A DNA stretch of 64,000 nt from Burkholderiaceae bacterium (lineage in GTDB: Bacteria; Pseudomonadota; Gammaproteobacteria; Burkholderiales; Burkholderiaceae_E). A program made the translations under genes and the position numbers. The stretch's first letter is position 1. Each line of letters begins with the position of its first letter. The notes below the pieces were generated by a model. The model was given only the letters and a program-made list of their open reading frames with translations. It had not been told where the DNA came from and ran no database searches. This document shows positions 35,295-50,892 of this stretch, piece by piece. Location: NCBI GenBank assembly GCA_044235405.1, contig JBIIHU010000001.1:375-64374 (forward strand), written 5' to 3'.

Positions 35295-38200
35295 GTGAAG
35301 GCCTTCCGGCTCTCGGGGATCGGCACCCGGCTACTCGGACTGGTCGGCCTGGTCGTCGCCGCGCTGCTCGCGGTCGCGGCGCTGGTCTTCTTCAGCTTCG
35401 GCCGCATCGAGCGGCTGGTCGCGCAGCAGGCGAGTGCCGAGGTGTCGTCGGTGCTCGCCAACGCGGCGCTGGGGCGCGAGCTGTCGCTGGTGCTCGCGCG
35501 TCTGAACCAGCTGGCGCTCGCCTGCCGCAGCGAACGCACGCCGGCCGAGCTGCTGCGGTCGCTGCGCGCCTCGCTCGGCCAGCTACGCCCCGATGGCCCG
35601 AATCCGCTGCTCGCGAGCGCGATCGGCGAATTCGCGGCCTCGGGCGGCGCGCTGCTCGACGCCTGCGAGCGGGTCGGCGCCACGCTCGCCGAAGCCGCCG
35701 CCAACGACCGCCAGCTGCTCGAGGTGCTCGCGGCACTCGAGAACACGGTTGCCCGCGCGCTGATCGAACAGACAATGGCCGCGCGCTCGGTCGACCACCT
35801 CGACCAGGCGATGGCACAGCTCACCGGCTTTCGCGAGACGGTGCTCCTTGCCGGCAGGCAGCTCGGCCGGCCTCAGTCGCCCGCGAACCCGGGCAAGCCG
35901 GCATCGCCGCCGCGCACCCAGCTGCAGGAGCTCGCGGTCCGGCTGCAGGGTTTCGTCAGCGCCACCCCCGAGATGAGCCGCCAGGCCACCGAGCTGCGCG
36001 CGCTGGTGCTGCGCCAGGTCGACACGCTGGGCCGGCTCGACGCCACGCTGCAGAGCTTCGACGACCGGATCGCCGGTACGCAGAAAGTGCGCGACGCGCT
36101 GCTGCGGCAAGTGGCCAGCCTCGACGGCGACGCCGCCGAACGCACCGCATCGCTCGATTCGACGCTGCAGCGGGTGATCCAGCAGAGCCGTCTGAACGTG
36201 ACCGCCGCCGTGGCGCTGGTGGCCGCGGCTGCGCTGCTGCTGGCGCTGCTGCTGATCAGGTCCGGCATCCGGCGACCGCTCGACGAGGTGCTCGCCCAGG
36301 TCAACCGGATTCGCAGCGGCGCGCAGCCTCAGCCGGCGCCGGCGCGTGCCGACGAATGGGGACAGATCCAGACCGCCCTCGCGACGATGTCGAGCGAACT
36401 GACCCAGGCCTCCGCCGAGCTCGAGCAGGCGCTCGCCGCGGCGCGCAGCGCCGCCGAAGCCAAGGGCCAGTTCATCGCCAACGTGAGCCACGAGATCCGC
36501 ACGCCACTGAACGCCGCGCTCGGGATGCTGAAGCTGCTGCAATCGACCGGCCTGAGCGCACGGCAGGCCGATTACGTCGCCAAGACCGAGGCGGCAACGC
36601 GCTCGCTGCTCGCGCTGATCAACGACATCCTCGATTTCTCGAAGATCGAGGCGCGGCAGATGAAGCTCGACATCGGACCGCTGCAGCTCGACGAACTCGT
36701 ACGCAACATCGGCGTGCTGCTCGGCGTCGTGCTCGAGCGCAAGCCCGTCGAGCTGCTCATCGACATCGACCCCCGGATTCCGCGCCGGCTGCGTGGCGAC
36801 GCGCTGCGCCTGCAGCAGGTGCTGCTGAATCTCGGCAGCAACGCGATCAAGTTCACCGCGCAGGGGGAGGTCGTGCTGCGGATCGCGCTGCGCGAAAGCG
36901 ACGAGCGCACGGTGCTGCTCGAGTTCTCGGTGCGCGACACCGGGATCGGCATCGCCCCCGACCAGCAGACCCGCATCTTCGAGGGTTTCTCGCAGGCCGA
37001 AGCCTCGATCACGCGCCGATTCGGCGGCACCGGCCTGGGCCTGGCGATCAGCCGCGACCTGGTGGCGCTGATGGGCGGGTCGCTCGGCGTGATCAGCGAA
37101 CCCGGTCGCGGCAGCACGTTCCACTTCGCGATCGTCCTGCCGGTCGACGACGCACCCGCCACCGCGGACAACGACGCGAGCGGCCTGCGCGACCTCGACG
37201 TGCTGGTGGTCGACGATCACCCGGCTGCTCGCGACGTGCTCGGCGCGATGGCGCGATCGCTGGGCTGGCGGGTCACGCTCGCCGCCAGTGGCGCCGAGGC
37301 GATCGCCATCGCACGCGAGCGCATCGCGCGGGGCGTCGCCTTCGATGTTGCCTTCGTCGACTGGGAGATGCCGGGCATGGACGGCTGGGAGAGCGCGCGG
37401 GCGCTGCGTACCCTCGCGGGAGCGACCCCGGCGGTGCTGATGGTGACCGCGCACGGCCGCGAAGCCATGGCGCGACGCACCGAGAGCGACATCGACGGGC
37501 TGAACGGCTTCCTGGTCAAGCCGATCACGGCATCGATGCTGCTCGATGCGGTGGTCGACGCACGGCGCGCACCGGGCGGCGTCAGGCGCGAGGCCGCGCC
37601 ACGACCCGCGCCCGTCCGCCAGCGGCCGCTCGCGGGGCTGCGCCTGCTGGTGGTCGAGGACAACGCGGGCAACCGGCAGGTCGCTCAGGAACTCCTCGAG
37701 TCCCGCGGCGCGCAGGTCGCCCTCGCCGAGGACGGTCAGCGTGGCGTCGATGCCGTGATCGCGGCCGATCCGCCCTTCGATGCAGTGCTGATGGACATGC
37801 AGATGCCGGTCATGGACGGGGTGGCTGCGACCGCCCGAATCCGCGAGATCGAGCGGCTGCGCACGCTGCCGATCGTGGCGATGACCGCCAACACCACCGA
37901 GGCCGATCGCCGCGTCTGTCTGCTGGCGGGGATGAGCGAACACGTGGGCAAGCCCTTCGATCTCGATCGCCTGGTCGACACGCTGCGCGCGCTGACCGGT
38001 CGCGGCGCAAAGACCGGCCCTCGCGCAACCGCGCTACCAGCGCTCGCCGGCGCCGCCTGGCGGGAGGCGGCGGCAGCCGGCGTCGATCTCGCCACCGCCC
38101 TCGGGCGCTTCGACGGCGACGTCCCGGTCTACGAACGGCTGCTGCGCAACGCGCTCGACGAGATTCCGTCTCGACTTGTTTCGTTGCGCACGCAACTTTC

Positions 38201-38762
38201 TGCCGCTGACATGCCCGGCGCGAGCGCGACGCTGCACGCGCTGAAGGGACTCGCGGGCGCGCTCGGCGCCGACGCGCTGGCGGCCGAGGCCGGCACCGGC
38301 GAACGCGCCTGCCGCGACGACGATCCGGGCGCCGCGGCTGCAACGCAGCCCTGCCTCGAGGAGGCTGCGCGCGAACTGCTGTTGTACGGCCCGAGGCTCG
38401 CCGCGGCGCTTCGCGAGCCGCCGCAGTCGCAACAGGCCCGGGGCATCGAACCCGGGATGGACGCAAGCGGACTCGAGGTCGCCGATGGGCTGCAGCTCGC
38501 GGACACCTGCGCCGATTCACGCCCTGCGGGCGTCGGTGCGAGCGCACCGGATGCGCGTGACCTGCTGGGCCGCCTCGCGGCGGTGCTTCGCGCGTCCGAC
38601 ATGCGCGCGTTCGAGCTCCTCGACGAAGGCCGCCCGGCACTGCTTCGCGCCGACCCCGCACTGCTCGCGGGACTCGACACGGCGATGGACGCGCTCGATT
38701 TCGAGCATGCCGCGAGGCTCTGCGACGCCGCACTCGCGAGCGTGGCGGCCTCCGGCGCCTGA
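35295..38762 (+). CDS. Hybrid sensor histidine kinase (periplasmic sensor, HAMP, HisKA, HATPase, two REC, Hpt)
   Basis: SHEIRTPLN H-box, NLGSNAIKFT, DTGIGI, GGTGLGLAI; REC Asp in FVDWEMP and LMDMQMP; Hpt LHALKG. Confidence 0.95.
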   Translation: MKAFRLSGIGTRLLGLVGLVVAALLAVAALVFFSFGRIERLVAQQASAEVSSVLANAALGRELSLVLARLNQLALACRSERTPAELLRSLRASLGQLRPDGPNPLLASAIGEFAASGGALLDACERVGATLAEAAANDRQLLEVLAALENTVARALIEQTMAARSVDHLDQAMAQLTGFRETVLLAGRQLGRPQSPANPGKPASPPRTQLQELAVRLQGFVSATPEMSRQATELRALVLRQVDTLGRLDATLQSFDDRIAGTQKVRDALLRQVASLDGDAAERTASLDSTLQRVIQQSRLNVTAAVALVAAAALLLALLLIRSGIRRPLDEVLAQVNRIRSGAQPQPAPARADEWGQIQTALATMSSELTQASAELEQALAAARSAAEAKGQFIANVSHEIRTPLNAALGMLKLLQSTGLSARQADYVAKTEAATRSLLALINDILDFSKIEARQMKLDIGPLQLDELVRNIGVLLGVVLERKPVELLIDIDPRIPRRLRGDALRLQQVLLNLGSNAIKFTAQGEVVLRIALRESDERTVLLEFSVRDTGIGIAPDQQTRIFEGFSQAEASITRRFGGTGLGLAISRDLVALMGGSLGVISEPGRGSTFHFAIVLPVDDAPATADNDASGLRDLDVLVVDDHPAARDVLGAMARSLGWRVTLAASGAEAIAIARERIARGVAFDVAFVDWEMPGMDGWESARALRTLAGATPAVLMVTAHGREAMARRTESDIDGLNGFLVKPITASMLLDAVVDARRAPGGVRREAAPRPAPVRQRPLAGLRLLVVEDNAGNRQVAQELLESRGAQVALAEDGQRGVDAVIAADPPFDAVLMDMQMPVMDGVAATARIREIERLRTLPIVAMTANTTEADRRVCLLAGMSEHVGKPFDLDRLVDTLRALTGRGAKTGPRATALPALAGAAWREAAAAGVDLATALGRFDGDVPVYERLLRNALDEIPSRLVSLRTQLSAADMPGASATLHALKGLAGALGADALAAEAGTGERACRDDDPGAAAATQPCLEEAARELLLYGPRLAAALREPPQSQQARGIEPGMDASGLEVADGLQLADTCADSRPAGVGASAPDARDLLGRLAAVLRASDMRAFELLDEGRPALLRADPALLAGLDTAMDALDFEHAARLCDAALASVAASGA

Positions 38763-38991
38763 GCACCCGCACGCAGCCACCGAGCCTGCTCCAGGGTAGC
38801 CCGGGCGCACACCCCCGCCGCGAGGCCGGCAGGCGCGCTTTCGGACCCGATGGCGCCACCGTGAGCAGGGATACCGCCGATCGGGCTGCGCCACGCGGGT
38901 TACCGTCGCGCCGCGTCTCGCCGTCCGCGTCATGCGGCGGAGGCGGCAGGTCCTGCGGGCAGCCGGCGGCGAGCGAATCCCGGAGCCTTCC

Positions 38992-39522
38992 ATGACCGGA
39001 ACCCTCATCACCGTCGTCCAGGGCGACATCGTCCGGCAACCCGACTGCGACGGCGTGGTCAATGCCGCCAACGCCAGCCTGATGGCCGGCAGCGGCGTCT
39101 GCGGCGCGATCCATGCCGCGGCGGGCCCGCGGCTGGAGCCCTATGCCCGCCGATTCGCCCCGCTGCGCGTGGGCGATGCGCTCGCCACGCCCGGCTTCGA
39201 CCTCGCGGGCTGCCGGCTGATCATCCATGCGGTCGGCCCGCGCTACTTCGACGACCCCGACCCGCCGATCCACCTGGCACGCGCGATGCACAGCGCGCTC
39301 GATCTCGCTGATCGCAACCAGCTGCAACGACTGGCCGTGCCGGCGCTGTCCACCGGTGTCTACCGGTACCCGCCCGAGGCCGCGGTCCCGATCCTGGTCG
39401 AGTCGGCCTTCGTCACGGCGCCGACGCTGAATCACCTGCGCGAGATCCGCTTCGTGGTTCCTGGCGAAACGATGCTGGCGCTGTTTCGGGACGCGATCGC
39501 CGGTCAGTCCGCCAGCCGCTGA
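38992..39522 (+). CDS. Macro-domain protein (ADP-ribose binding/hydrolase)
   Basis: QGDIV, VVNAANASLMAGSGVCGAIHAAAG, IIHAVGP and PALSTGVYRYP. Confidence 0.92.
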   Translation: MTGTLITVVQGDIVRQPDCDGVVNAANASLMAGSGVCGAIHAAAGPRLEPYARRFAPLRVGDALATPGFDLAGCRLIIHAVGPRYFDDPDPPIHLARAMHSALDLADRNQLQRLAVPALSTGVYRYPPEAAVPILVESAFVTAPTLNHLREIRFVVPGETMLALFRDAIAGQSASR

Positions 39523-39553: not shown

Positions 39554-39595
39554 CGAGCATGCGCCCGATCCGCTCGTTCATGATCACGGAGGTGC
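39554..39595 (+). repeat. Left direct repeat (copy of the acyl-CoA dehydrogenase 3' end)
   Basis: CGAGCATGCGCCCGATCCGCTCGTTCATGATC (39554-39585) is identical to 44770-44801 and extends to 42 bp with 2 mismatches. Confidence 0.95.
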
Positions 39596-41578
39596 GGGGA
39601 TCGAGGCTTGCAGCACAGGCAGGGCGCCCGTTGCCAGCCACTGATCGGCCAGCCATCGCGCGGCCTGCGGGGCGGCCACGCTGGTCCCGTTCATCGTTCG
39701 GACCGAAGCCGAGCGCGTACCGGCGGCAAGCACGCCGCGCCGCGCGGGGGATCGGTCGCCGGTCGCCAGCGACTCCGGCGCGGGCCGCGTACGCGAGCCA
39801 TTCAGATGCGGCCCGTCGGACGAGTAGCGTCGCGGTGCGGGATCCACGGCGCCGCGCGCACCGACGATATCCGTGCGGGCGCCCGTGGCAATGCCGCTGA
39901 GCGTCGTCGCTCGCCTCACATAGCCGGTGGCCGGAATCGGATCGACCAGCCGCGGACGCCCGCTGGGATCGAAGCGCGCGTACTCGGGGTCATCGAAGTA
40001 GGACTGGCGCCCCCTCGCGGGCCTGTCGGCGGGGGTGTCGGCACGGGCGATCCAGGCATGGACTTCCTGGACGGGATCCTCGCCGGGATTCAGGACCTCG
40101 ACCGTCCAGCGCCCCGAGGGGGCGGTCGCGTGAGGGACGACTGCCGGATCCTGGCTCGTCGGCGCGATCGTGAGTTCGATCGCATGGCGATTGCCGCTCG
40201 TCCAGTAGCGTGCCTGACCCACCGGACGCCCCGCCGCATTCTGCAGGGCGACGGGATAAGGTGAAGCGCGCGACGTCGTAGTTGTCAGCTGGCCGCTCGG
40301 CGAGGTCAGCTTGACCTGGACGCCGCCCGCCGGCGGATTGTGCAGCCAGATCTGCATCCGGCTGCACACGAGGCTGCCGGGCTGCAGTCGCCAGGCGAGC
40401 TGGCGGGACCCATGGGCGGGCAGATCGAATGCGGCGTGCGCCCGGGCCTGGCGGGCGTTGCCCGCGGCGAGCACGATCCGCATCGGTGTCGCCGTCTTGG
40501 CGGTCGCCCGGACCAGCCAGTCCATGAAGCGTTCGAGCGTCGATCCGCCGTCGTGGGGTCCCTCGTGCGGGCCGTAGCTCAAGGTCACGATGACCGGCAG
40601 CGTTTCGCCGTCTTCACGCATCGCCCTGGCCCTGTCGAGGATGAAGAGCAGCCCGAGCGCGGCCAGCGGGGTCAGCAGCGAAGCGGCGGGATCTCCGATA
40701 CCGGCGTTCGGCATGTCCACCGCGACGATCGGTCGATTCCTGACGTCGCCCCGCGGATCGTCGCCTGCGACGAGATCGAGCACATGAGCGCCGTGCGAGC
40801 GGCTTCGACCCAGGGCCTTGACCCCGGGCCGCGCGTAGTCCAGCCCGCCGATTGCACGGTAGATCTGATCCTCGTCGCCTCCCGTGCTCGTCAGCGCGGC
40901 ATCGATATCGGCCGCGCTCAGGGTTCTGCCCGGGGCACCCGGAAGGGGTCCGTTGCCTGCGCAGCCCTGCTGCCAGAGGTGGGCGATCCGGGTGCCACCG
41001 GCATGACGGAAACGCGCGTGCGCGAACGGAATGCCCTCGTCGATGACGCCGATGACCACGCGCCTTGGCTTGTCGGGAAGGTCAGTCGGCGCGCTCGCCG
41101 TTGGCTGCGAGGCAGCGTGTTTCCGCGGCGGCTCGAACAGTTCCGCATCGAGCAGCGGCCCGAGCTCGACGCTGGCGACGATGCGCTGCCAGGGCTCGCA
41201 GGATATGACGATGCTGAGGTGGCTGTACGCCACGAAGAGCACGCAGATGTCGGGCTCCGGGATCTCGTCGACTTTCGTGCCGGGGTCGCCGAAGCCGCCG
41301 GGAACCCGGATGACATCGTCACCTCGGAGGTTCTCAGGCAGCCAGTCGAGACGGGAGAAGGCCTGCAGCGGACTGAGCTCACCGAGAAATACGAGCTTAG
41401 CCAGCTCCTCGCGTCGAAACTCGACGAGCATCGGAAAAAAGGGCTGGGGCTCTGCCTTGTCCGGCTCGAGTCCGAGGGGCGCGGCGATCAGGCCGGGATC
41501 GCTCGCGATCAGCCAGTCGATCTGCGGCTGGGCGGGCAGGTTTTCCTTCGCCGGAGCGTCATCGAGGGGCTTCGTCAT
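39584..41578 (-). CDS. S8 (subtilisin-like) serine peptidase without a signal peptide
   Basis: VIGVIDEG (Asp), SHGAHVLDLVAG (His), AAGN (oxyanion Asn) and NGTSVAAP (Ser); long insertion between Asn and Ser; GAAAGG RBS. Confidence 0.88.
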   Translation of the reverse strand: MTKPLDDAPAKENLPAQPQIDWLIASDPGLIAAPLGLEPDKAEPQPFFPMLVEFRREELAKLVFLGELSPLQAFSRLDWLPENLRGDDVIRVPGGFGDPGTKVDEIPEPDICVLFVAYSHLSIVISCEPWQRIVASVELGPLLDAELFEPPRKHAASQPTASAPTDLPDKPRRVVIGVIDEGIPFAHARFRHAGGTRIAHLWQQGCAGNGPLPGAPGRTLSAADIDAALTSTGGDEDQIYRAIGGLDYARPGVKALGRSRSHGAHVLDLVAGDDPRGDVRNRPIVAVDMPNAGIGDPAASLLTPLAALGLLFILDRARAMREDGETLPVIVTLSYGPHEGPHDGGSTLERFMDWLVRATAKTATPMRIVLAAGNARQARAHAAFDLPAHGSRQLAWRLQPGSLVCSRMQIWLHNPPAGGVQVKLTSPSGQLTTTTSRASPYPVALQNAAGRPVGQARYWTSGNRHAIELTIAPTSQDPAVVPHATAPSGRWTVEVLNPGEDPVQEVHAWIARADTPADRPARGRQSYFDDPEYARFDPSGRPRLVDPIPATGYVRRATTLSGIATGARTDIVGARGAVDPAPRRYSSDGPHLNGSRTRPAPESLATGDRSPARRGVLAAGTRSASVRTMNGTSVAAPQAARWLADQWLATGALPVLQASIPAPP

Positions 41579-41593
41579 GGCGGCCTGCCTTTC

Positions 41594-42790
41594 TCACCAC
41601 TCCGCGGCAGCCGCCTGCCACAGCCAGTGAAGCCTCGAGGTCCCCTGAACGGCGCAGGTCGCAAAGCCACCCGGCACAGCGCCCGCTATTCTGTGGGCGT
41701 AACCCGTGGTCTGCCGGCTGCCCGCTTGCGGATCGAAGAGTTCCTGGCCGGAGAAGTCGCCCTGGGGCGGATACTGCGCGACATCCAGAGCCCAGGCGTC
41801 GACCAGGGTAGCACCGCCACCGGACGGCCTGCAGCGCGCGATGAAATACTCGCCGAGGCTCAGGCCGAGCAGCTGACCGGCGGCGCTGTCGATCGGGTAA
41901 TGGACGCCGGCCACCGTCCGGTTGATGGCGATGCGCGCCGCCTGACGCATGAGCAGCTCGCGCAGTTGCGTTTTCGCGCCCGCGCTGGCGGCCGGCAGGG
42001 CCCCGGTGGCGAGTTCGACCAGCACCCGAGCCACCGTGTACGCCTCGGTCGCGTGTCCGCTGGGCAGGGCGGCATGGATCGGGGTCGGGATCATCGGCTG
42101 AACCTGCGCCGAGAGCTCGTGCGGCCTGGGTACGCCGAGCGCATCCTTGAAGTTCATCTCGGCGTACTTGGCCAGGCGCAGCACCATCCCGATCAGCTCG
42201 AAGGTCTTCGGATGGCGCGCGGGCTGCAGCGGAAGCACCGAGGCCCAGAACGCATATTGGGGCGCCTTCTGCGCGAGGATCTCGCGCGCCCGGTCGCCGC
42301 GCAGGTCGGCATAGCCGTTCAGGTAGTCGAGTTGCGCCTCGAGGATCGTCGTCAAGCCCGCAGGGTCGGGCAGGCTGATGCGCACCAATGGCGTCCCGCT
42401 CCAGGCCGGCGTACCGCCCACCGGGGTGACCTCGAGATGCCAGAGGGTTGCGGTCCGCGAGGTCGCGTCGGTGCTGAAGTGGAGCCCCGACAGCAGCTCG
42501 GATTCGAAGAGCAGCCGACGGATCCGGGGATCCAGACGTCCGAGGCCGGCGACACCAAAGTTGGGCGGCGTGGGGTGAACCGCGGGGTCGAGCGCGCGGA
42601 CAGGCCAGACAGGACCCATCGGAGCCCAGGCGCCGACGATGGCATCGCGGTGCGGAATCAGGGCACCGGAGGAGGAGCCCCCCCGCCTCGATGCTCCGTA
42701 ACCCTCGTAGCCCTCGTAACCTTCGTACCCCTCATAACCCTCGTAGCCCTCGTAACCCTCGTAGCCCTCATAGCCTTCGAGTCGACTCAT
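41594..42790 (-). CDS. PAP2 / vanadium-haloperoxidase superfamily enzyme with N-terminal (EGY)9 repeat
   Basis: KDALGVPRP (K-x6-RP), PSGH and RTVAGVHYPID (R-x5-H-x3-D) are all present; strong AAGGAG RBS before MSRLEGY. Confidence 0.88.
   Translation of the reverse strand: MSRLEGYEGYEGYEGYEGYEGYEGYEGYEGYGASRRGGSSSGALIPHRDAIVGAWAPMGPVWPVRALDPAVHPTPPNFGVAGLGRLDPRIRRLLFESELLSGLHFSTDATSRTATLWHLEVTPVGGTPAWSGTPLVRISLPDPAGLTTILEAQLDYLNGYADLRGDRAREILAQKAPQYAFWASVLPLQPARHPKTFELIGMVLRLAKYAEMNFKDALGVPRPHELSAQVQPMIPTPIHAALPSGHATEAYTVARVLVELATGALPAASAGAKTQLRELLMRQAARIAINRTVAGVHYPIDSAAGQLLGLSLGEYFIARCRPSGGGATLVDAWALDVAQYPPQGDFSGQELFDPQAGSRQTTGYAHRIAGAVPGGFATCAVQGTSRLHWLWQAAAAEW
42698..42778 (-). repeat. 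Coding 9-bp tandem repeat x9 encoding (Glu-Gly-Tyr)9
   Basis: Units use GAG/GAA, GGT/GGC/GGG and TAC/TAT; every difference between units is synonymous. Confidence 0.97.
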
Positions 42791-42829
42791 GCTAACTCCT
42801 TCAATCCGGGGATCGGTGTACGCCGATGA

Positions 42830-44608
42830 TCAGTCAGGAACCCCCGCCAACGCCAGGGCCTGCGCCGCCAGCCTGCCATTCTCGTAGCCGCTGCTCGGCG
42901 AGCGGCGAACGAAATCCTCCACGCGAAAGGAGGGGGCCTGACGCATCAGTTCCCTGGTCACGGCGCGGGCCTCGTCGGCGGCGCCGAGATGCCACAACGC
43001 GATGATCAGCGTCCTGAGCGTGGATCCATGCGTCCGATTCAGACGCAGCGAGCTGCGCGCGAGCCGGACGCCGCGCTCATACTGTCCGGCGGAAACCGCG
43101 GCGGTTGCCGCGAGTGCCTCGAAGTAGAAGCGCAGCGGATCCATCGGCGAAAGCCGCATGGCCTGTTTCGTGTGCCGAACGGCCTCCCTGCCCTCGTCGC
43201 GAAAGGCGTGCAGGGTTCCCTTGAGGAGCCATGCCAGCGCGTCGTTCGGGTTCGCCTGCAGCGCCTGCGCATAGCGATCCTCGGCTTCGTCGAGCTGCTT
43301 CAGGATGTAGGTGTGAACCTGGCCTTCCACGGTCAGGGCGAGCGACGAGGCGGCATCGCGATCGAGCGCGCGACGCGCGCATTCCAGTGCTGCACGCCCA
43401 TCGGCCTGCGAATCATCCGACCAGCCCTGGGTCACACGCAGCACATGCCATTTCGCGAGCCAGGCGTGCGGCGCGGCCAGCCGCGGCGCGCGCTCGATCA
43501 GGGTTTCCAGCATCTGGTGCGCACGCCGGAAGGCCTGCGGCGAAATCCGATGCATCAGCGTGATACCCGCCAGCAGCAGCGTGTGGTTCTCGAGCGTCTG
43601 GGCAGCCTGCCCCTGGGCCCGCTGCAGTTCATGCACCATCATGCCGGCACAGGCTTCGTCGACGAGCTGCGCGGGCAAAGGATCTTCGCCGGCCAGGATC
43701 GCCGACACCTTGCCCTTCAGGCTCCCCGCCCAGGCAACCCGCCCGTCCCTGGTCTCGGCGAGCTCGGCCTTCAGCGAGAGCCGGTCGCCCTGCACGTGGA
43801 AGGACCCCGACAGGACATAGTTGGCCCTGAGACGGGTCCCGATGTCTTCCAGGGCGATCGTACGATCCTGCAGCGCCGCGGTCGACAGACGCGACACCAC
43901 GTTGATCTCGAGTGAACGCGACAGCGTCGAAATCACTTCGTCGGCGACGATCTGGCCGAGGATCCGGTGCGGGGATTCCACGTCACGGACAGAGAACGGA
44001 AGCACGGCGACCGTCGCTCGCAGATCGCTCGCAAGGTCCGTGATCGGGATGATCGGCGTGTCGACCGGCGGGCCGACCCGGAATGCTCGCACCGGCTTTC
44101 GGATGTGCTTCAGGTGACATTCGCCGAGATCCTCGAGGTCGGCGTCGATGTCGGGTGTCAGTTGATCGCGAACGTCCGCGGACACGACGGTTTCGCCCGC
44201 GCCGGCCAGCGAGAGCAGCCGCGCCGCGAGATTCAGGCCGTGTCCGTACACATCGTGGCGCCCGGTGATCAGGGGGCTGACATGGATGCCGATGCGCAGC
44301 CAGAGCCGGTACTCGTGGGCGATGCCTGGATGGGTCTGGCCGATTGCCCCGTGCATCGCGAGCGCCGCGCGCACGGCCGCCCGCGCGTCGGGGAACTCGA
44401 TCATCAGGCCATCGCCAAGACTCTTGACCAGACGTCCACCGTTCCCGGGCAGAAACCGATCGACCACGAGATCGACAAAGGTCTGCCAGCGCTTCACCGT
44501 GCCCGCTTCGTCGAGCTGCATCAGCCGCGTGTACTCGACCACATCGGCCATCAGCACCGTGCGGACCACCCGCGTGAGTTTCTCGGCGGCCGACAGGGTT
44601 TGCGACAT
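42830..44608 (-). CDS. Class III adenylate/guanylate cyclase-TolB-like-TPR protein
   Basis: LMADVVEYT and VKSLGDG (metal Asp, base-specifying Lys), HDVYGHGLNLAARL (Asp, N-x3-R), TVAVLPF TolB-like domain and several TPRs. Confidence 0.9.
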   Translation of the reverse strand: MSQTLSAAEKLTRVVRTVLMADVVEYTRLMQLDEAGTVKRWQTFVDLVVDRFLPGNGGRLVKSLGDGLMIEFPDARAAVRAALAMHGAIGQTHPGIAHEYRLWLRIGIHVSPLITGRHDVYGHGLNLAARLLSLAGAGETVVSADVRDQLTPDIDADLEDLGECHLKHIRKPVRAFRVGPPVDTPIIPITDLASDLRATVAVLPFSVRDVESPHRILGQIVADEVISTLSRSLEINVVSRLSTAALQDRTIALEDIGTRLRANYVLSGSFHVQGDRLSLKAELAETRDGRVAWAGSLKGKVSAILAGEDPLPAQLVDEACAGMMVHELQRAQGQAAQTLENHTLLLAGITLMHRISPQAFRRAHQMLETLIERAPRLAAPHAWLAKWHVLRVTQGWSDDSQADGRAALECARRALDRDAASSLALTVEGQVHTYILKQLDEAEDRYAQALQANPNDALAWLLKGTLHAFRDEGREAVRHTKQAMRLSPMDPLRFYFEALAATAAVSAGQYERGVRLARSSLRLNRTHGSTLRTLIIALWHLGAADEARAVTRELMRQAPSFRVEDFVRRSPSSGYENGRLAAQALALAGVPD

Positions 44609-44755: not shown

Positions 44756-45916
44756 TCAGGGCCCCTGCACGAGCATGCGCCCGATCCGCTCGTTCATGAT
44801 CTCGGTGGTGCCGTCGGTAAAACCCATCACCTTGGCGGCGGCCAGGTGGCGGCCGAGCCCGTGCTCGTCGAGCAGGCCCTCGGCGCCCATCGCCTGAATG
44901 CAGGCGGCGATCGCGGCGAGCGTGTGTTCGCCAGCAAATTTCTTGGCGATGGCCGCCGCCATCTGGGCGTCGAGCCCGCGGTCGATCAGCCCGGCCGCGC
45001 GGTAGGTGAGCAGGCGCAGCGCCTCGAGCGTGGTGGCGACCCCCGCGAGCGACCAGCGCAGCCCCTGGTGGCCCAGCAGCGGCAGGCCGAAGGCCTCGCG
45101 CGAGGCACCGCGGGCCACCGCCTTGCCGAGCGCGGTCTCGATCATGCCGCAGCACATCGCCGGGATGTGGGCACGCGCCTTGTTGATCGACCCCATGGCC
45201 GCCCTGAAGGCCTGACCAGGCGCATAGAGCATCAGCTCGTCGGGCACGAAGCAGCCCTCCAGCCGGTAGCCGCCGGTGCCGGCGGCATGAATGCCGGCTA
45301 CCGCGAGCGCGGGTTCGCGGATGAATCCGGCCTGGTCGCCGGCGACGATGAAGCAGGCGATCCCGCGATCGCGCGAGCCCGGTTCGGTCTGGGCGAAGGT
45401 GAGGAAGACATCGGCCTTTGATGCGTTGACGATCCAGCGCTTGGCGCCGTCGAGCACCCATCCGCCGGCCACCCGACGCGCGACCGTGGTCGAGGCGGCG
45501 AAGTCGCTGCCACCGCCCGGCTCGGTCATGCCGGTGCAGCCGATCAGCTCGCCCGCCATCAGCGCGGGCACGAAGCGTGCGACGGCCGCCGGCGAGCCGT
45601 GGTCGGCGATGCGCGAGGCCGCGTTGTGCTGGTTCACCAGCGAGAAGGCGAAGCCGAAGTCATGGCGGGCGATCTCCTCGACCATCCGCAGCTTGGCGCC
45701 GAAGGGCAGGCCGAGACCGCCGCGCGCCGCCGGTACCTCGATCGCCGCGAATCCCTGGGCGCAGGCAGCTCGAATCGCCTCGCGCGGGAATCGACCCTCG
45801 CGCTCCCAGTCGGGCGCGGCGGGCGCGACCACCTGCGAGGCGAAGGCGATGGTACGGGCGACGAGCTCGCGCGCGGCGGCGGGCAGGGCGGCGTCGAATT
45901 CGGCGGTGGCGTGCAT
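44756..45916 (-). CDS. Acyl-CoA dehydrogenase family protein
   Basis: GMTEPGGGSD, LDGAKRWIVN, HQGLRWSLA, AKKFA, MGAEG and FTDGTTEIM. Confidence 0.93.
   Translation of the reverse strand: MHATAEFDAALPAAARELVARTIAFASQVVAPAAPDWEREGRFPREAIRAACAQGFAAIEVPAARGGLGLPFGAKLRMVEEIARHDFGFAFSLVNQHNAASRIADHGSPAAVARFVPALMAGELIGCTGMTEPGGGSDFAASTTVARRVAGGWVLDGAKRWIVNASKADVFLTFAQTEPGSRDRGIACFIVAGDQAGFIREPALAVAGIHAAGTGGYRLEGCFVPDELMLYAPGQAFRAAMGSINKARAHIPAMCCGMIETALGKAVARGASREAFGLPLLGHQGLRWSLAGVATTLEALRLLTYRAAGLIDRGLDAQMAAAIAKKFAGEHTLAAIAACIQAMGAEGLLDEHGLGRHLAAAKVMGFTDGTTEIMNERIGRMLVQGP
44770..44811 (+). repeat. Right direct repeat, inside the acyl-CoA dehydrogenase 3' end
   Basis: Matches 39554-39595; encodes ...TEIMNERIGRML of the intact gene. 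Confidence 0.95.
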
Positions 45917-47233: not shown

Positions 47234-48157
47234 ATGCCCGCACCCACCTCCCGGCCGCTGCTGCTGGACCCGAAAAACGATTTCGTCTTCAAGAAGCTGC
47301 TGGCCGACGCGCCGACGCTTCTGGCCGCGCTGATCAACGCCGTGCGCCATCCGCGTCCCGCGGTCACCGTGGTGGACATCCTCAACCCGGTCATCACCCC
47401 CGAGGAACTCGAGGGCAAGTTCATCGTCCTCGATGTCCTTGCCGAAGACCAGCTCGGCCAGCGCCACGACGTCGAGATGCAGTCGAGACCCTTCCCGGCG
47501 TGGGGCGCGCGCAGCGTGTATTACCTCGCCCGCACCCTGGCGCGCCAGCTCGATGCGGGCCACGAATACACGCGGCTGCGCCCGGCGATCGGCATACACC
47601 TGCTCGATTTCGCGCTGTACGATGACGAGGATTCGACGCAACAGGCCGCCTGGTGCTTCGAGCTGCGCGATGGCAGACGCCCGACGGTGCGCCTCGGACC
47701 GGAGCTCGAGCTCCACCTGATCGAACTGCCCAAGGCACGCCGACTTCGTCGACTCGGGTACGAGCCGGCGCTGGCGGGCGCGCTGGGCGCCTGGATCGAT
47801 TTCTTCGAGCACTGGAACGACGAGGAACGCATGGCCGGAATCGACGAACCCGCGGTACGGCAGGCGCTGGTGCGACTGCATGATCTCAGCGCCGACGAGG
47901 AGGCGCGGCGGATGGCCTTCGTGCGGATGCGCGCGCTGCGCGACGAGCGCGCGATCCGGCTCGGGGAACGCGAAGCCGGTCGTGCCGAGGGCGAAATCAT
48001 CCTGCTGCTGCGCCTTCTCGAGCAACGCTTCGGACCCATACCCGCCACCGCGATCGCTCGCCTGCGCCGGGCGACACCCGAGGAATGCGCTGGCGTGGCC
48101 GATCGGATGCTGCGGGCGGCAAGCCTCGTCGAGGCGCTCGGTCCCGTCGCCACCTGA
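47234..48157 (+). CDS. Rpn-family recombination-promoting nuclease / PD-(D/E)XK putative transposase
   Basis: DPKNDFVFKKL, LDVLA...DVEMQ, RSVYYLAR, LELHLIELPK, W..F and C-terminal EGRAEG/LLEQRFG module. Confidence 0.9.
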   Translation: MPAPTSRPLLLDPKNDFVFKKLLADAPTLLAALINAVRHPRPAVTVVDILNPVITPEELEGKFIVLDVLAEDQLGQRHDVEMQSRPFPAWGARSVYYLARTLARQLDAGHEYTRLRPAIGIHLLDFALYDDEDSTQQAAWCFELRDGRRPTVRLGPELELHLIELPKARRLRRLGYEPALAGALGAWIDFFEHWNDEERMAGIDEPAVRQALVRLHDLSADEEARRMAFVRMRALRDERAIRLGEREAGRAEGEIILLLRLLEQRFGPIPATAIARLRRATPEECAGVADRMLRAASLVEALGPVAT

Positions 48158-49434: not shown

Positions 49435-50892
49435 GTGTCGCCCCCTCGGAGCCCTGCCCTGGAACCGTCGTCGCTGCTTGCCGCCCTGACCGTCGGGTCC
49501 GCCATCGGCGCGCTTGCCGCCTGGCTGATGCTGCGCGCGCGCCACGCGGCCGAACGGCGCGAGGCCCGCGACGCGTGGGAGGCCATGCGGGACGCCCTCG
49601 ATGCGAGCCGCGATGAGGCCGCCCGCCTCGATGAGCGAGCCCGGCGTGCAAGCGATCTCGAAGGCAGGCTCGACGCGCGCGACCAGGAGGTTGCGGCGCT
49701 GCGGGTCGAGGCGGCCGAGCTGCGCGGCCAGCTGCGCATCGCCGATGCGCAGCTTTCGGCCGAAAAGGCACGCGCCGCCGACCGCATTGCCGTGCTGGCG
49801 CAAGCCCAGGCGGCGATGGGCGAACGTTTCCGCGCGCTGGCCGGCGAGGCGCTCGATGCCAGCGCAAGGCGGCTGCAGGAGCAGAGCCAGGCCAGCCTCG
49901 CGGCGCTGCTCGACCCGATGCGCCAGCGCCTGGCCGACTTCCAGAGAAAGGTCGAGGATGTCTACATCGACGAGAGCAAGGAGCGCTCGGCGCTGCGTCA
50001 GCAGGTCGAGACGCTGGTGCGCCTGAACCAGACCCTGAGCGACGATGCCCGCAACCTGACCGCGGCACTGCGTGGATCGGCGAGGAGCCAGGGAAGCTGG
50101 GGCGAACTGATCCTCGAAAGAGTCCTGGAGGCGTCCGGGCTGCGCCGCGGTCACGAGTACGAGGTGCAGGATTCGCAACGCGGCGAGGACGGCCAGCGGC
50201 TGCAGCCCGATGTCGTGATCCACCTGCCCGAGTCGCGACGGCTGGTGGTCGACGCGAAGGTCAGCCTGGTCGCCTACGAGCGTTTCGCGATCGCCGGGGA
50301 CGACCCGACCCGGGACGCGGCGCTGCGCGACCACCTCGCCTCCGTTCGTGCGCACCTGCGCGGCCTGTCCGACAAGCGCTACCACACGCTGTACGGCAGC
50401 TCGCTCGACTTCGTGCTGATGTTCGTGCCGATCGAACCCGCCTTCATGACCGCGATCACCCACGACCCGGAGCTCTTCGCCGACGCCTGGGAACGCAATG
50501 TGCTGCTGGTCAGCCCCTCGACGCTGCTGTTCGTGGTGCGTACCGTCGCGCACCTGTGGCGCCAGGAAGCGCAGACTCGCAACGCGCAGGAGATCGCGCG
50601 GCGCGGTGCCGAACTCTACGACCGGCTCGCCGGCTTCGTCGCCGACCTAGAGACGGTGGGCCAGCGCCTCGACGGCGCCCAGAAGGCCTGGGGCGACGCG
50701 CGACGCAAGCTCGCCGAGGGCCGGGGCAACGTGATCCGCCAGGCCGAGATGTTGCGCGAACTCGGCATCAGACCGTCGCGGCAGTTGCCGCGATCCCTGG
50801 TCGAGGCCGCGCTCGACGACGCGCCCGAACGGGCCGATGTGCCGCCCGACCCGACGGAAGACCCGCCAGGACCGCCTGCAGACTCACGCTGA
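49435..50892 (+). CDS. rmuC: DNA recombination protein RmuC
   Basis: TM anchor and coiled coil; QGSWGELILERVLE, LQPDVVIHLP, VDAKVSL, FVLMFVPIEPAF and SPSTLL. Confidence 0.95.
   Translation: MSPPRSPALEPSSLLAALTVGSAIGALAAWLMLRARHAAERREARDAWEAMRDALDASRDEAARLDERARRASDLEGRLDARDQEVAALRVEAAELRGQLRIADAQLSAEKARAADRIAVLAQAQAAMGERFRALAGEALDASARRLQEQSQASLAALLDPMRQRLADFQRKVEDVYIDESKERSALRQQVETLVRLNQTLSDDARNLTAALRGSARSQGSWGELILERVLEASGLRRGHEYEVQDSQRGEDGQRLQPDVVIHLPESRRLVVDAKVSLVAYERFAIAGDDPTRDAALRDHLASVRAHLRGLSDKRYHTLYGSSLDFVLMFVPIEPAFMTAITHDPELFADAWERNVLLVSPSTLLFVVRTVAHLWRQEAQTRNAQEIARRGAELYDRLAGFVADLETVGQRLDGAQKAWGDARRKLAEGRGNVIRQAEMLRELGIRPSRQLPRSLVEAALDDAPERADVPPDPTEDPPGPPADSR

What the first reader, a model, noticed from the sequence alone, without database searches (positions are those of the whole stretch)
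39584..44608. Three-gene operon: cyclase-TPR sensor, (EGY)9-PAP2/haloperoxidase enzyme and cytoplasmic subtilase
Seen: three co-oriented genes with 39-bp and 15-bp gaps (the last two with clear RBSs) fill the whole repeat-bounded cassette. All three keep recognisable catalytic motifs and none has a signal peptide. Established: class III cyclases make cyclic nucleotides and include the Pycsar anti-phage cyclases; TPRs sense ligands; proteases are common effectors in conflict systems. Inference: the three form a self-contained sensor, second-messenger and effector unit, either anti-phage defence or regulated modification and release of a Tyr-rich peptide. I do not know of a characterised system with this composition.
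Basis: partly seen in the sequence, partly recalled or inferred. Interest (0 to 1): 0.9.

Follow-up and report, generated by a model that had tools for sequence, protein, structure and literature searches.

The report
TPR-cyclase, tripeptide-array phosphatase, subtilase operon
This is a widespread, unstudied three-gene bacterial module whose phosphatase starts with a string of identical three-amino-acid units, and those units change between strains together with the peptide-binding end of the partner sensor, which points to a peptide-coded internal signalling switch rather than a phage defence.

Summary
Three tightly packed minus-strand genes encode a class III cyclase-TPR protein, a PAP2 enzyme starting MSRL(EGY)9, and a cytoplasmic subtilase. 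All catalytic motifs are intact, and 42-nt direct repeats flank the cassette.

The trio is strongly conserved. Of 72 informative genome loci from Alpha- and Betaproteobacteria, 68 keep the same order, and 80 metagenome loci agree.

The new result is that almost every PAP2 homologue begins with a tandem peptide array. Units are 99.3% identical within an array, yet I found about 48 unit types across loci. The DNA encoding them is synonymously scrambled. A strain with a 100% identical subtilase carries (DGY)10.

Unit switches track divergence of only the last ~120 residues (C-terminal TPRs) of the cyclase-TPR protein (p=0.001; replicated at p=0.02-0.045). The PAP2 body co-diverges with the subtilase instead (r=0.93).

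The cyclase is catalytically degenerate in about half the family, and in some members an OmpR/SARP-type DNA-binding domain replaces it. Crp regulators often lie nearby.

PADLOC, NCBIfam and the literature do not describe the system, and flanking genes are housekeeping.

Best reading: a signalling module with a TPR sensor, a tethered peptide-array ligand and a Csp-like protease. Defence is unsupported. The mechanism is inferred, not shown.

The parts
42830..44608 (-). Gene 1: sensor-transducer of 592 aa. It has a class III cyclase domain (aa 17-171), a TolB-N/FlgO-like middle domain (about aa 181-330) and a TPR domain (aa 331-592).
   Evidence: The ORF is and the Pfam Guanylate_cyc and TPR hits. 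JGI names it 'class 3 adenylate cyclase/TolB-like protein'. A homologue shows a FlgO hit in its middle domain. The nearest solved cyclase domains are 3mr7 and Ma1120.
44096..44560 (-). Cyclase catalytic domain. It carries the full adenylate-cyclase-type residue set D22, K62, D66, R105, D119, N126, R130.
   Evidence: The set is intact here and in 34 of 66 homologues, and degenerate in the rest.
42833..43198 (-). C-terminal TPR segment (aa 471-592). This is the proposed specificity determinant that co-varies with the array unit.
   Evidence: divergence of 0.26 vs 0.13 (aa 471-536) and 0.47 vs 0.20 (aa 537-592) for different-unit vs same-unit pairs, permutation p=0.001 for both. replicates this at p=0.045 and p=0.022. 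One search shows the segment is conserved within a unit type even when synonymous sites are saturated.
42791..42829 (-). 39-bp intergenic spacer with the Shine-Dalgarno motif AAGGAG (42796-42801), 5 nt before the PAP2 start codon.
   Evidence: An SD-like motif precedes the array-including start codon in 66 of 74 homologous loci.
41594..42790 (-). Gene 2: soluble PAP2 (class-A-acid-phosphatase-like) enzyme of 398 aa that carries the N-terminal peptide array.
   Evidence: The catalytic residues K215, R222, S244, H246, R291, H297 and D301 are invariant in 80 of 80 homologues.
42698..42778 (-). Tandem tripeptide array (EGY)x9 (aa 5-31), preceded by the conserved leader MSRL (42779-42790). It is predicted to be disordered.
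   Evidence: AlphaFold2 pLDDT is below 50 for residues 1-38. The nine peptide-identical units are encoded by six different 9-mers.
42626..42664 (-). Conserved motif ALIPHRDAIVGAW (family consensus ALIxHRDGIVGxW) directly after the array and linker. It is a candidate docking or cleavage site.
   Evidence: Alignment A2 shows R48, G50, I51 and W55 as nearly invariant and G53 as invariant. The region has low model confidence. Its role is inferred.
41852..42184 (-). PAP2 catalytic core (aa 203-313) with the motifs KX6RP, PSGH and NRX5HX3D.
39584..41578 (-). Gene 3: cytoplasmic Csp-like subtilase of 664 aa. It has a prodomain-like N-terminus (aa 1-170), an S8 catalytic domain and an inserted beta-sandwich (jellyroll) domain.
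   Evidence: D180, H262 and N374 are invariant in 79 of 79 homologues and S633 in 77 of 79. The best structural matches are CspB 4i0w (E=2.7e-21), CspA and CspC.
39554..39595 (.). Left copy of the 42-nt direct repeat. It is a remnant of the acyl-CoA dehydrogenase 3' end and overlaps the subtilase stop codon.
44770..44811 (.). Right copy of the 42-nt direct repeat, lying inside the 3' end of the acyl-CoA dehydrogenase gene (44756-45916, minus strand).
   Evidence: The start-to-start spacing of the two copies is 5216 bp.

Best explanation
The operon is a self-contained signalling module, not a defence system.

Shown:
1. Gene 1 is a TPR sensor-transducer whose N-terminal output domain is swappable across the family. 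In this window it is an intact adenylate-cyclase-type domain. Elsewhere it is a degenerate cyclase or a winged-helix DNA-binding domain.
2. Gene 2 is a catalytically competent soluble PAP2 phosphatase. Its extreme N-terminus is a disordered array of identical tripeptides, (EGY)9 here.
3. Gene 3 is a catalytically competent intracellular Csp-like subtilase.
4. Unit identity co-varies with the last ~120 residues of the TPR protein, while the PAP2 body co-diverges with the subtilase.

Inferred:
1. The array is the cognate, tethered and multivalent ligand of the C-terminal TPRs of gene 1. They would form a lock-and-key pair that diversifies between lineages as pherotype loci do.
2. The PAP2 body is the partner or substrate of the subtilase. 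The subtilase probably cuts the tail at or near the conserved ALIxHRDGIVGxW motif rather than reading the units.
3. Cleavage would free or destroy the ligand, and so change both PAP2 activity and the output of the TPR protein.
4. In this window the output is cAMP. An array with several identical sites could bring cyclase monomers together into the dimer that class III cyclases need. In relatives, Crp-type regulators encoded nearby would read the cAMP.

The input signal and the phosphatase substrate are unknown.
For: Conservation of the trio. In the GTDB genome scan, 68 of 72 informative loci have cyclase-TPR, PAP2 and subtilase in the same order and on the same strand. The genes are tightly packed. 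Homologues at 27-31% identity also keep the trio, and so do 80 metagenome loci. The subtilase profile finds 3771 clusters (50% identity) at E<=1e-30.

The array is translated and under selection.
- It is present in essentially every complete homologue.
- Of 749 units in 77 arrays, 99.3% are identical within their array.
- The DNA is scrambled, with a median of 8 distinct 9-mers per array and Ser codons switching between AGY and TCN.
- Array GC3 is 0.57 against 0.75 in the rest of the gene (p=1.4e-12), and an SD motif precedes the array-including start in 66 of 74 loci.

Rapid diversification. I found 39 unit types in 81 loci and more in the metagenome set. Units differ between loci whose subtilases differ by only 0-11%.

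Specificity coupling.
- Among 39 close pairs in 13 clusters, a unit difference predicts divergence only of cyclase-TPR residues 471-592 (p=0.001). It does not predict divergence of any PAP2 segment, including residues 40-80 next to the array, or of any subtilase segment.
- The effect replicates in independent metagenome loci (p=0.045 and p=0.022).
- Within one unit type this segment is as conserved as the protein core even at saturated synonymous divergence (L083/L074: 9% amino-acid divergence at dS about 0.6). Between unit types it differs by about 50%.
- The C-terminus of L044 (GGL) groups with L038 (GGL), not with its closest relative L048 (GGI).

Second module. PAP2 body and subtilase divergences correlate at partial r=0.93 given the cyclase core.

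Output swapping. The cyclase residue set is intact in 34 of 66 homologues. Variants with an OmpR or SARP-like winged helix exist. Crp-like regulators lie within 10 kb in about 17 loci, all in the intact-cyclase clade.

Enzymes. PAP2 and subtilase catalytic residues are invariant. The folds are class A acid phosphatase and Csp protease.
Against: - No binding, cleavage or cAMP measurement exists. The whole mechanism rests on comparative inference.
- Pairs in the covariation tests are not independent. The replication rests on two informative clusters, with p of only 0.02-0.045.
- Linkage may contribute, because the C-terminus of the cyclase-TPR gene lies directly upstream of the array. Recombination tracts could carry both (one search shows an imported block in L035/L031).
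- The EGY-to-DGY switch in L089 happened without any change in the TPR segment.
- A global mutual-information scan found no simple TPR-residue-to-unit code.
- The subtilase shows no unit-linked divergence, so its target is a guess.
- cAMP cannot be the universal output, because half the family has a dead cyclase.
- No Crp-like gene lies in this 64-kb window.
- One locus (L026) has no adjacent TPR gene.
Confidence: 0.45

Rival explanations
1. RiPP-like peptide factory. The array would be a multi-core precursor fused to its modifying enzyme (PAP2), as in BURP-domain or multi-core precursors. The subtilase would release n identical, possibly modified, tripeptides. The TPR-cyclase would sense or regulate the product.
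For: - Many identical units per protein sit directly beside a dedicated protease.
- The leader length before the array is almost always 1, 4, 7 or 10 residues, that is Met plus whole triplets. This would fit stepwise release of tripeptides.
- Subtilases process multi-copy precursors in other systems (my own knowledge: Kex2 with alpha-factor, prohormone convertases with TRH).
- The TPR covariation fits a sensed product equally well.
Against: - The loci contain no transporter, recognition element or known RiPP tailoring enzyme.
- Unit chemistry is too varied for one side-chain modification (GGL, DAN, EGY, HAA, GGA and others).
- PAP2 enzymes are not known peptide modifiers.
- Subtilase divergence is not linked to unit identity, which argues against cutting between units with unit-specific pockets.
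- Some arrays use 4- or 6-residue units.
- The one tailoring-enzyme lead, a Trp halogenase beside a GGW array, failed. A homologue also sits near a GGL array.
Confidence: 0.2
2. Structural tether without proteolysis. The array would be an extended, polyproline-II or collagen-like rod with three residues per turn. It would hold PAP2 permanently on the TPR protein or oligomerise it. The subtilase would act on something else.
For: - Period 3, with Gly or Ala in most units, matches helices with three residues per turn (my own knowledge of PPII, polyglycine-II and collagen helices).
- The TPR C-terminus co-varies with unit identity.
- Strict unit identity would give three uniform faces along the helix.
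Against: - Units without Gly exist (DAN, DAA, HAA, AAF), as do 4- and 6-residue periods.
- AlphaFold2 models the region as disordered.
- A purely structural role does not explain the invariant pairing and co-divergence of the PAP2 body with an active protease.
Confidence: 0.15
3. Anti-phage or conflict system. The TPR domain would sense infection, the cyclase would make a nucleotide signal, and the protease and/or phosphatase would act as effectors.
For: - There is weak PADLOC similarity to PycC (5.9e-6) and to the C-terminus of IetS (1.8e-3).
- The cassette looks horizontally acquired, with direct repeats and low GC.
- Hypervariability and mosaic recombination are typical of conflict loci.
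Against: - Neither putative effector has a cNMP-binding domain.
- The cyclase is dead in about half the family or replaced by a DNA-binding domain.
- Neighbouring genes are housekeeping and not defence genes.
- The IetA partner is absent.
- The locus is retained with the same neighbours within genera such as Polaromonas, Litoreibacter and Lutimaribacter.
- The recurrent neighbours are transcription factors (Crp, GerE, GAF-HTH).
Confidence: 0.07
4. The covariation is a linkage artefact. The array would be a fast-evolving, low-complexity spacer with no specific partner, and the adjacent 3' end of the cyclase-TPR gene would simply hitch-hike with it.
For: - The two regions are only 39 bp apart.
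- L035/L031 show an imported block with saturated synonymous divergence that spans both regions.
- The E-to-D switch occurred without any TPR change.
- No global residue code was detected.
Against: - A neutral spacer would not keep 99.3% unit identity while its codons are scrambled and shifted to rare codons.
- PAP2 residues 40-80, equally close on the other side of the array, show no association.
- The TPR C-terminus is under purifying selection within a unit type: 4-9% amino-acid divergence at dS 0.3-0.6.
Confidence: 0.1

Closest known systems
RRNPP-type peptide-receptor cassettes of Firmicutes (Rap-Phr, PlcR-PapR, NprR-NprX, PrgX, AimR-AimP)
   Same: A TPR receptor gene is followed directly by the gene that encodes its peptide. 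The receptor carries an output domain. Receptor and peptide diversify together into specificity types. The description of RRNPP systems is from my own knowledge; the matching features of this operon are.
   Different: - No sequence similarity to RRNPP receptors was detected.
- The hosts are Alpha- and Betaproteobacteria.
- The ligand is an N-terminal tandem array fused to an enzyme, not a small secreted pro-peptide.
- There is no export signal.
- The operon carries its own dedicated cytoplasmic protease.
- The output domain is N-terminal and is a class III cyclase or an OmpR-type winged helix.
Pherotype loci with a contiguous hypervariable block (agrB-agrD-agrC of staphylococci, comQXP of Bacillus)
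   Same: A mosaic pattern is seen: an ancient, highly divergent block covers the signal and the adjoining part of its partner gene, and the flanks are nearly identical. The description of agr and com is from my own knowledge.
   Different: The gene families are unrelated. The system here appears to work inside the cell. The signal is a repeat array.
Csp germination proteases of Clostridia (CspB, CspA, CspC)
   Same: They are the best sequence and fold matches. The profile gives E=5.8e-31 to 9sj6. Foldseek gives E=2.7e-21 with target-normalised TM 0.67 to 4i0w. Like the window protein they are intracellular subtilases with a prodomain and an inserted jellyroll, and CspB activates a zymogen by cleavage.
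   Different: Identity is only 14-19%. The hosts here do not sporulate. There is no SleC-like substrate. The partner is a PAP2 enzyme.
Class A non-specific acid phosphatases (PAP2: P. aeruginosa 7f17, PhoN, PhoC, EB-NSAP)
   Same: The catalytic motifs and helical core match.
   Different: Those enzymes are periplasmic and about 220 aa long. This protein is cytoplasmic and 398 aa long, with an extra N-terminal beta/alpha domain, C-terminal additions and the peptide array. Vanadium haloperoxidases match worse (rank 31 or lower, E>=0.02).
Pycsar (PycC cyclase plus a cNMP-activated effector)
   Same: Both have a class III cyclase domain. The PADLOC PycC hit is weak, at 5.9e-6.
   Different: There is no effector with a cNMP-binding domain. 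The cyclase is dispensable in half the family. The context is not a defence island.
Multi-core or enzyme-fused RiPP precursors (cyanobactins, fungal Kex2-processed repeat peptides, plant BURP-domain cyclases)
   Same: Many identical short units sit in one polypeptide, here fused to an enzyme, with a subtilase next door.
   Different: No known tailoring enzyme or exporter is present. The units are hypervariable in chemistry. No product is known.

Membership tests
Class III nucleotidyl cyclase | Cyclase homology domain above the Pfam gathering score | tested here: met
   PF00211 scores 36.7 bits against a cut-off of 21.9, aa 17-171. PDB 3mr7 matches at E=5.7e-23.
Class III nucleotidyl cyclase | Two metal-binding Asp, the substrate pair Lys/Asp, and the transition-state residues Asn/Arg | tested here: met
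   D22, D66, K62, D119, N126 and R130 are present in the window protein. The set is intact in only 34 of 66 family members.
Pycsar | An effector protein with a cNMP-binding domain encoded next to the cyclase | tested here: not met
   No cNMP_binding hit was found in PAP2 or the subtilase. PADLOC gave only a weak PycC hit.
Pycsar | Protection against phage | not testable with these tools
   This needs a phage challenge experiment. The genomic context shows no defence genes.
IetAS | An IetS subtilase together with an IetA ATPase | tested here: not met
   The IetS hit is E=1.8e-3 over 80 residues only. No ATPase gene is in the operon.
PAP2 superfamily | The motifs KX6RP, PSGH and SRX5HX3D, plus a Pfam hit | tested here: met
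   PF01569 scores 39.3 bits against a cut-off of 27.2. The motif residues are invariant in 80 of 80 homologues.
Vanadium haloperoxidase | A fold and sequence closer to haloperoxidases than to phosphatases | tested here: not met
   Acid phosphatases fill ranks 1-28 of the fold search, starting at E=7e-6. The first haloperoxidase (4usz) is at rank 31 with E=0.022. Vanadate binding cannot be tested here.
Subtilase (peptidase S8) | A Pfam hit plus the Asp/His/Ser triad and oxyanion Asn | tested here: met
   PF00082 scores 27.3 bits against a cut-off of 21.8. D180, H262 and N374 are invariant and S633 is present in 77 of 79 homologues.
Csp germination protease subfamily | Prodomain, subtilase domain and inserted jellyroll architecture | tested here: met
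   Foldseek gives CspB at E=2.7e-21, and also CspA and CspC. The sequence profile gives E=5.8e-31.
Csp germination protease subfamily | A role in spore germination (pro-SleC cleavage) | tested here: not met
   The hosts are Alpha- and Betaproteobacteria. No SleC-like gene lies nearby. This operon may work like a Csp protease but is not a functional member.
RRNPP receptor-peptide systems | A TPR receptor gene adjacent to the gene that encodes its peptide, with the two diversifying together | tested here: met
   Synteny holds in 68 of 72 loci. Unit identity co-varies with the C-terminal TPRs. This shows resemblance in logic only.
RRNPP receptor-peptide systems | A secreted, processed and re-imported small pro-peptide; homology to the RRNPP TPR fold family | tested here: not met
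   No signal-like segment was found. No RRNPP protein appears among the PDB sequence matches.
RiPP biosynthetic cluster | A precursor peptide plus a recognised tailoring enzyme, and usually an exporter | tested here: not met
   The loci hold only the three genes. The flanks are variable and contain no tailoring or export genes. The halogenase lead was rejected.

The most novel reading that the evidence does not exclude
A cell-autonomous, proteobacterial peptide-code signalling system. A tethered array of identical tripeptides would be read unit by unit by the C-terminal TPRs of a sensor. Multivalent binding would assemble or activate the sensor's output domain: cyclase dimerisation giving cAMP, or a DNA-binding domain. 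A Csp-like protease would reset or trigger the switch by cutting the array off its PAP2 carrier. The roughly 48 unit types would then be a natural library of orthogonal TPR-tripeptide recognition pairs.
Probability: 0.3. Interest if true: 0.92.

Novelty: categorically new. Interest (0 to 1): 0.86.

Why it matters
If the reading holds, this is a previously unnoticed signalling principle in Gram-negative bacteria: a repeat-encoded, lineage-specific peptide ligand that evolves together with a TPR reader.

It is common. It occurs in at least 176 species-level genomes of Alpha- and Betaproteobacteria and in more than 550 metagenome loci, and the subtilase family has thousands of clusters. Cultured hosts include Bradyrhizobium, Polaromonas, Bosea and Roseibium, so it can be tested directly.

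It would add a new input type to class III cyclase and cAMP-Crp signalling. It would assign a first role to Csp-like subtilases outside spore formers and to cytoplasmic PAP2 enzymes. It would also offer dozens of natural orthogonal TPR-peptide pairs for protein engineering.

The arrays are a clean case of selection for peptide repetition combined with selection against DNA repetition.

There is also a practical point. Public gene calls frequently cut the array off, which probably explains why the feature has gone unnoticed.

Tried and rejected
1. Defence reading. PADLOC scans of the three proteins and four neighbours gave only weak generic hits. Flank clustering found no defence genes.
2. Trp-halogenase link. 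L005 (unit GGW) has a halogenase gene inside the operon. A homologue also lies near L038 (unit GGL), and L084 (unit SGW) has none. I rejected this as coincidence, possibly carried in with an IS element.
3. Global mutual information between cyclase-TPR alignment columns and coarse unit classes. The top columns are not enriched in residues 471-592 (6 of 30 against 6.3 expected). No simple code is visible. Only the phylogenetically local contrasts were informative.
4. Unit-linked divergence in the subtilase (the S1-pocket idea, tripeptidyl-peptidase-like cutting). No subtilase segment shows an association. The 'Met plus 3k' leader rule can also be explained by growth of the array in 9-bp steps.
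5. Empty-site search. Laying contigs from four lake metagenomes across the cassette gave no joint between 39595 and 44770. Mobility therefore rests only on the direct repeats, the low GC and the contig break.
6. A fourth conserved gene. None was found. The only recurrent neighbour is a Crp-like regulator.
7. tRNA and Rfam scans of the window found nothing.
8. Literature. Seven keyword searches were run ([failed on term length], 34, 69, 92, 93). None returned a paper on this gene trio or on the arrays.
9. Haloperoxidase assignment. The fold search favours acid phosphatases.

Full report
1. What is in the window

Three minus-strand ORFs occupy 42830-44608 (592 aa), 41594-42790 (398 aa) and 39584-41578 (664 aa), with gaps of 39 and 15 bp. 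AAGGAG lies 5 nt before the second start codon and AAAGG before the third. No credible terminator separates the genes.

Pfam assigns three domains:
- A class III cyclase domain plus TPRs.
- A PAP2 domain.
- A Peptidase_S8 domain.

All expected catalytic residues are present. The second protein starts MSRL(EGY)9. A crude hydropathy scan shows no signal peptide or membrane segment.

A 42-nt, 95% identical direct repeat brackets the cassette at 39554-39595 and 44770-44811. The right copy is the 3' end of an acyl-CoA dehydrogenase gene. The cassette has the lowest GC in the window and forms its own 5244-bp contig in one public assembly.

2. The trio is a conserved unit

Three homologues of the PAP2 protein that I looked up sat in the same three-gene arrangement.

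A scan of one genome per GTDB species with a subtilase profile found 176 relatives, of which 80 loci were returned. Eight of the 80 are cut by contig ends. Of the 72 informative loci:
- 68 have cyclase-TPR, PAP2 and subtilase in the same order and on the same strand, almost always a few tens of bp apart.
- Three have a divergently transcribed TPR protein instead (L047, L049, L056).
- One has no adjacent TPR gene (L026).

Subtilase relatives at only 27-31% identity keep the trio.

The subtilase profile finds 3771 clusters (50% identity) at E<=1e-30 among 1.84 billion representatives. Hosts are Alpha- and Betaproteobacteria from soil, freshwater and sea. The window itself comes from a freshwater lake bacterium seen in many lake metagenomes.

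3. The unexpected feature: a hypervariable but internally perfect peptide array

Nearly every complete PAP2 homologue begins with a short leader followed by a tandem tripeptide array of 3-18 units, median 9. The leader is typically M-[S/A]-x-[L/F/Y/M].

The unit differs between genomes. Examples are EGY, EGF, EGA, EGV, EGS, DAN, DAA, GGL, GGI, GGV, GGF, GGY, GGW, SGV, TGV, NGS, HGM, HAA and GHT. I found 39 types in 81 loci and further types in the metagenome set. A few arrays use 4- or 6-residue units.

Within an array, 99.3% of 749 units are identical at the peptide level. The DNA, however, is scrambled at synonymous sites:
- The median is 8 distinct 9-mers per array, with about 2 differences per 9 nt.
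- Ser codons switch between AGY and TCN.
- Array GC3 is 0.57 against 0.75 in the rest of the gene (Wilcoxon p=1.4e-12).

An SD-like motif precedes the array-including start in 66 of 74 loci, so the arrays are translated. The pattern is selection for exact peptide repetition together with avoidance of DNA repetition. It is not recent slippage.

AlphaFold2 models the array as disordered (pLDDT below 50 for residues 1-38). A conserved motif, ALIxHRDGIVGxW, follows the array and a variable linker.

Public annotations often start the gene after the array. Examples are Tritonibacter horizontis and Tardiphaga.

4. The array turns over very fast

A JGI contig is 98.7% identical to the window, and its subtilase protein is 100% identical. 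It carries (DGY)10 instead of (EGY)9. Of the 81 nucleotide differences, 42 fall in the 200 bp that hold the array and the spacer before it.

Other close pairs also differ in unit identity:
- SGI vs SGV at 5% subtilase divergence.
- DAA vs DAN at 6%.
- GGL vs GGI at 11%.

5. Who reads the array?

I compared 39 pairs of related loci (13 clusters, cyclase core divergence below 25%). I asked which protein segments diverge more when the unit differs, after regressing on core divergence, and I permuted unit labels within clusters.

Only the C-terminal TPR part of the cyclase-TPR protein responds:
- Residues 471-536 diverge by 0.26 against 0.13.
- Residues 537-592 diverge by 0.47 against 0.20.
- Both give p=0.001.

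The cyclase domain, the middle domain, TPRs 331-470 and every subtilase segment show nothing. Neither does any PAP2 segment, including residues 40-80 right next to the array.

The alignments are gap-free, and the C-terminus groups by unit rather than by overall relatedness. L044 (GGL) resembles L038 (GGL), not its nearest relative L048 (GGI).

Within a unit type the segment is as constrained as the protein core, even at saturated synonymous divergence. L083/L074 show 9% amino-acid divergence at dS about 0.6, and L013/L018 show 5%. Between types it differs by about 50%. In L035/L031 it is part of an imported block with dS 0.59, flanked by DNA with dS 0.03-0.16.

The independent metagenome set gives the same specific result, at p=0.045 and p=0.022, with nothing elsewhere.

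PAP2-body and subtilase divergences correlate at partial r=0.93, and neither correlates with the TPR C-terminus. L013 and L018 share the unit EGA and a nearly identical TPR C-terminus, although their PAP2 bodies (35%) and subtilases (49%) are far apart.

The locus therefore consists of two co-evolving pairs joined by the PAP2 protein:
- The TPR C-terminus with the array.
- The PAP2 body with the subtilase.

Linkage may contribute to the first pair. The type-specific conservation and the silence of the equally close PAP2 residues 40-80 argue that it is functional.

6. What the three proteins are

The subtilase model (pLDDT 79, pTM 0.87) is closest to the clostridial Csp germination proteases, which have a prodomain, a subtilase domain and a jellyroll insert. 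Its triad is invariant in the family.

The PAP2 model (pLDDT 84.6) is closest to class A acid phosphatases. Vanadium haloperoxidases rank far lower. Its catalytic residues are invariant in 80 of 80 homologues.

The cyclase is different. The residue set D-K-D-R-D-N-R is intact in the window and in 34 of 66 homologues, and degenerate in the rest. In some loci the TPR partner carries an OmpR-type (Trans_reg_C, E=3e-4) or SARP-like (AfsR, E=0.004) winged helix instead of a cyclase.

A Crp-like cNMP-binding regulator lies within 10 kb in about 17 loci, all from the intact-cyclase clade. None lies in this window.

The TPR protein thus behaves as a transducer with interchangeable outputs, and the cyclase is one of them.

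7. Interpretation

Shown:
- The trio is conserved.
- The array is translated, selected and hypervariable.
- There are two co-evolving pairs.
- The phosphatase and protease are catalytically competent.
- The TPR protein's output domain is swappable.

Inferred:
- The array is the cognate, tethered and multivalent ligand of the C-terminal TPRs.
- The subtilase cuts the PAP2 tail at a conserved site rather than reading the units.
- Cleavage changes phosphatase activity and sensor output, which in this window is cAMP.

I put about 0.45 on this model as a whole, and somewhat more on the TPR-array pairing alone. The closest analogy in logic is an RRNPP or pherotype-type receptor-peptide cassette. However, no homology to RRNPP receptors was detected, there is no secretion signal, and the repeat-array ligand fused to an enzyme has no precedent that I could find.

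8. Rivals

- RiPP-like tripeptide factory (0.2). This stays open, but no tailoring or export genes are present and the protease does not track the unit.
- Non-proteolytic structural tether (0.15). This cannot be excluded.
- Pure hitch-hiking (0.1). This cannot be excluded either.
- Defence (0.07). There is no cNMP-binding effector, the cyclase is dispensable, the flanks are housekeeping, and the PADLOC matches are only weak.

9. Novelty

PADLOC and NCBIfam have no model for the system. Source names are generic. The literature searches found nothing. I rate the system as categorically new in composition and in its array feature. The caveat is that the mechanism rests on comparative inference only.

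Noticed in passing
L094 4664-5998 (Tritonibacter horizontis); L003 7776-9044 (Tardiphaga MAG): Public gene calls start the PAP2 gene downstream of the array. MARF(GHT)x18 and (AGA)x13 lie upstream of the annotated starts, and in L094 a spurious opposite-strand ORF is called over the array. Many database proteins in alignment A2 likewise lack the array.
   Followed up: partly
L092 4745-5989; P0062 and P0078 in alignment A2: Units are not always tripeptides. L092 has (GGGA)x9, a tetrapeptide unit. P0062 and P0078 have hexapeptide-like units, (LQGAxA)n and (NGHSLQ)n.
   Followed up: no
L043 (two PAP2-subtilase pairs, units GSH and SGQ); L038 11640-13703 (second subtilase paralogue): Some genomes carry two copies of the PAP2-subtilase pair, or an extra subtilase right after the operon. 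This hints at duplication with a change of unit.
   Followed up: no
L005 5309-7930 and L006 1535-3040: A DDE transposase and a flavin-dependent Trp halogenase gene are inserted between the cyclase-TPR and PAP2 genes. The array here is short and degenerate (GGW SST GGW GGW). A homologous halogenase also lies 3 kb upstream of the operon in L038 (unit GGL), so the link to Trp units was rejected.
   Followed up: yes
window 38932-39522 (+): A macro-domain (ADP-ribose-binding or hydrolase) gene converges on the subtilase gene, and its 3' end lies 32 bp from the left direct repeat. The same neighbour is present in all near-identical contigs (L087-L091).
   Followed up: no
window about 47234-48157 (+) and about 49435-50892: A PDDEXK_2 (Rpn/YhgA-like recombination-promoting nuclease) gene lies about 2.4 kb beyond the right direct repeat, and an RmuC gene lies further on. 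Coordinates were mapped from the gene calls of L087. They may be relevant to how the cassette arrived, but this was not examined.
   Followed up: no
window 42400-43000 in lake metagenome runs X2, X3, X4, X6: Assemblies break into short unitigs around the array. Half-depth variants appear at 42689-42695, and a 12-nt insertion at 42580 occurs in one run. Several array and N-terminal alleles therefore coexist in natural populations.
   Followed up: partly
window 44828-45200 compared with 39600-44600, in runs X2 and X8: Contig depth over the acyl-CoA dehydrogenase gene is 2-4 times the depth over the cassette. No contig joins the two direct-repeat copies. Relatives without the cassette may be present, but an empty site was not demonstrated.
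   Followed up: partly
L002/L015 5721-7515 and 7556-8846; L011 6738-8638: The cyclase-TPR or PAP2 genes are split into two or three ORFs in some long-read MAGs. These are probably assembly frameshifts rather than pseudogenes.
   Followed up: no
window 35295-38762 (+): A large hybrid histidine kinase (HisKA, HATPase, two receiver domains, Hpt) lies just beyond the macro-domain gene. A similar hybrid kinase and a GerE regulator also flank the operon in L005.
   Followed up: no
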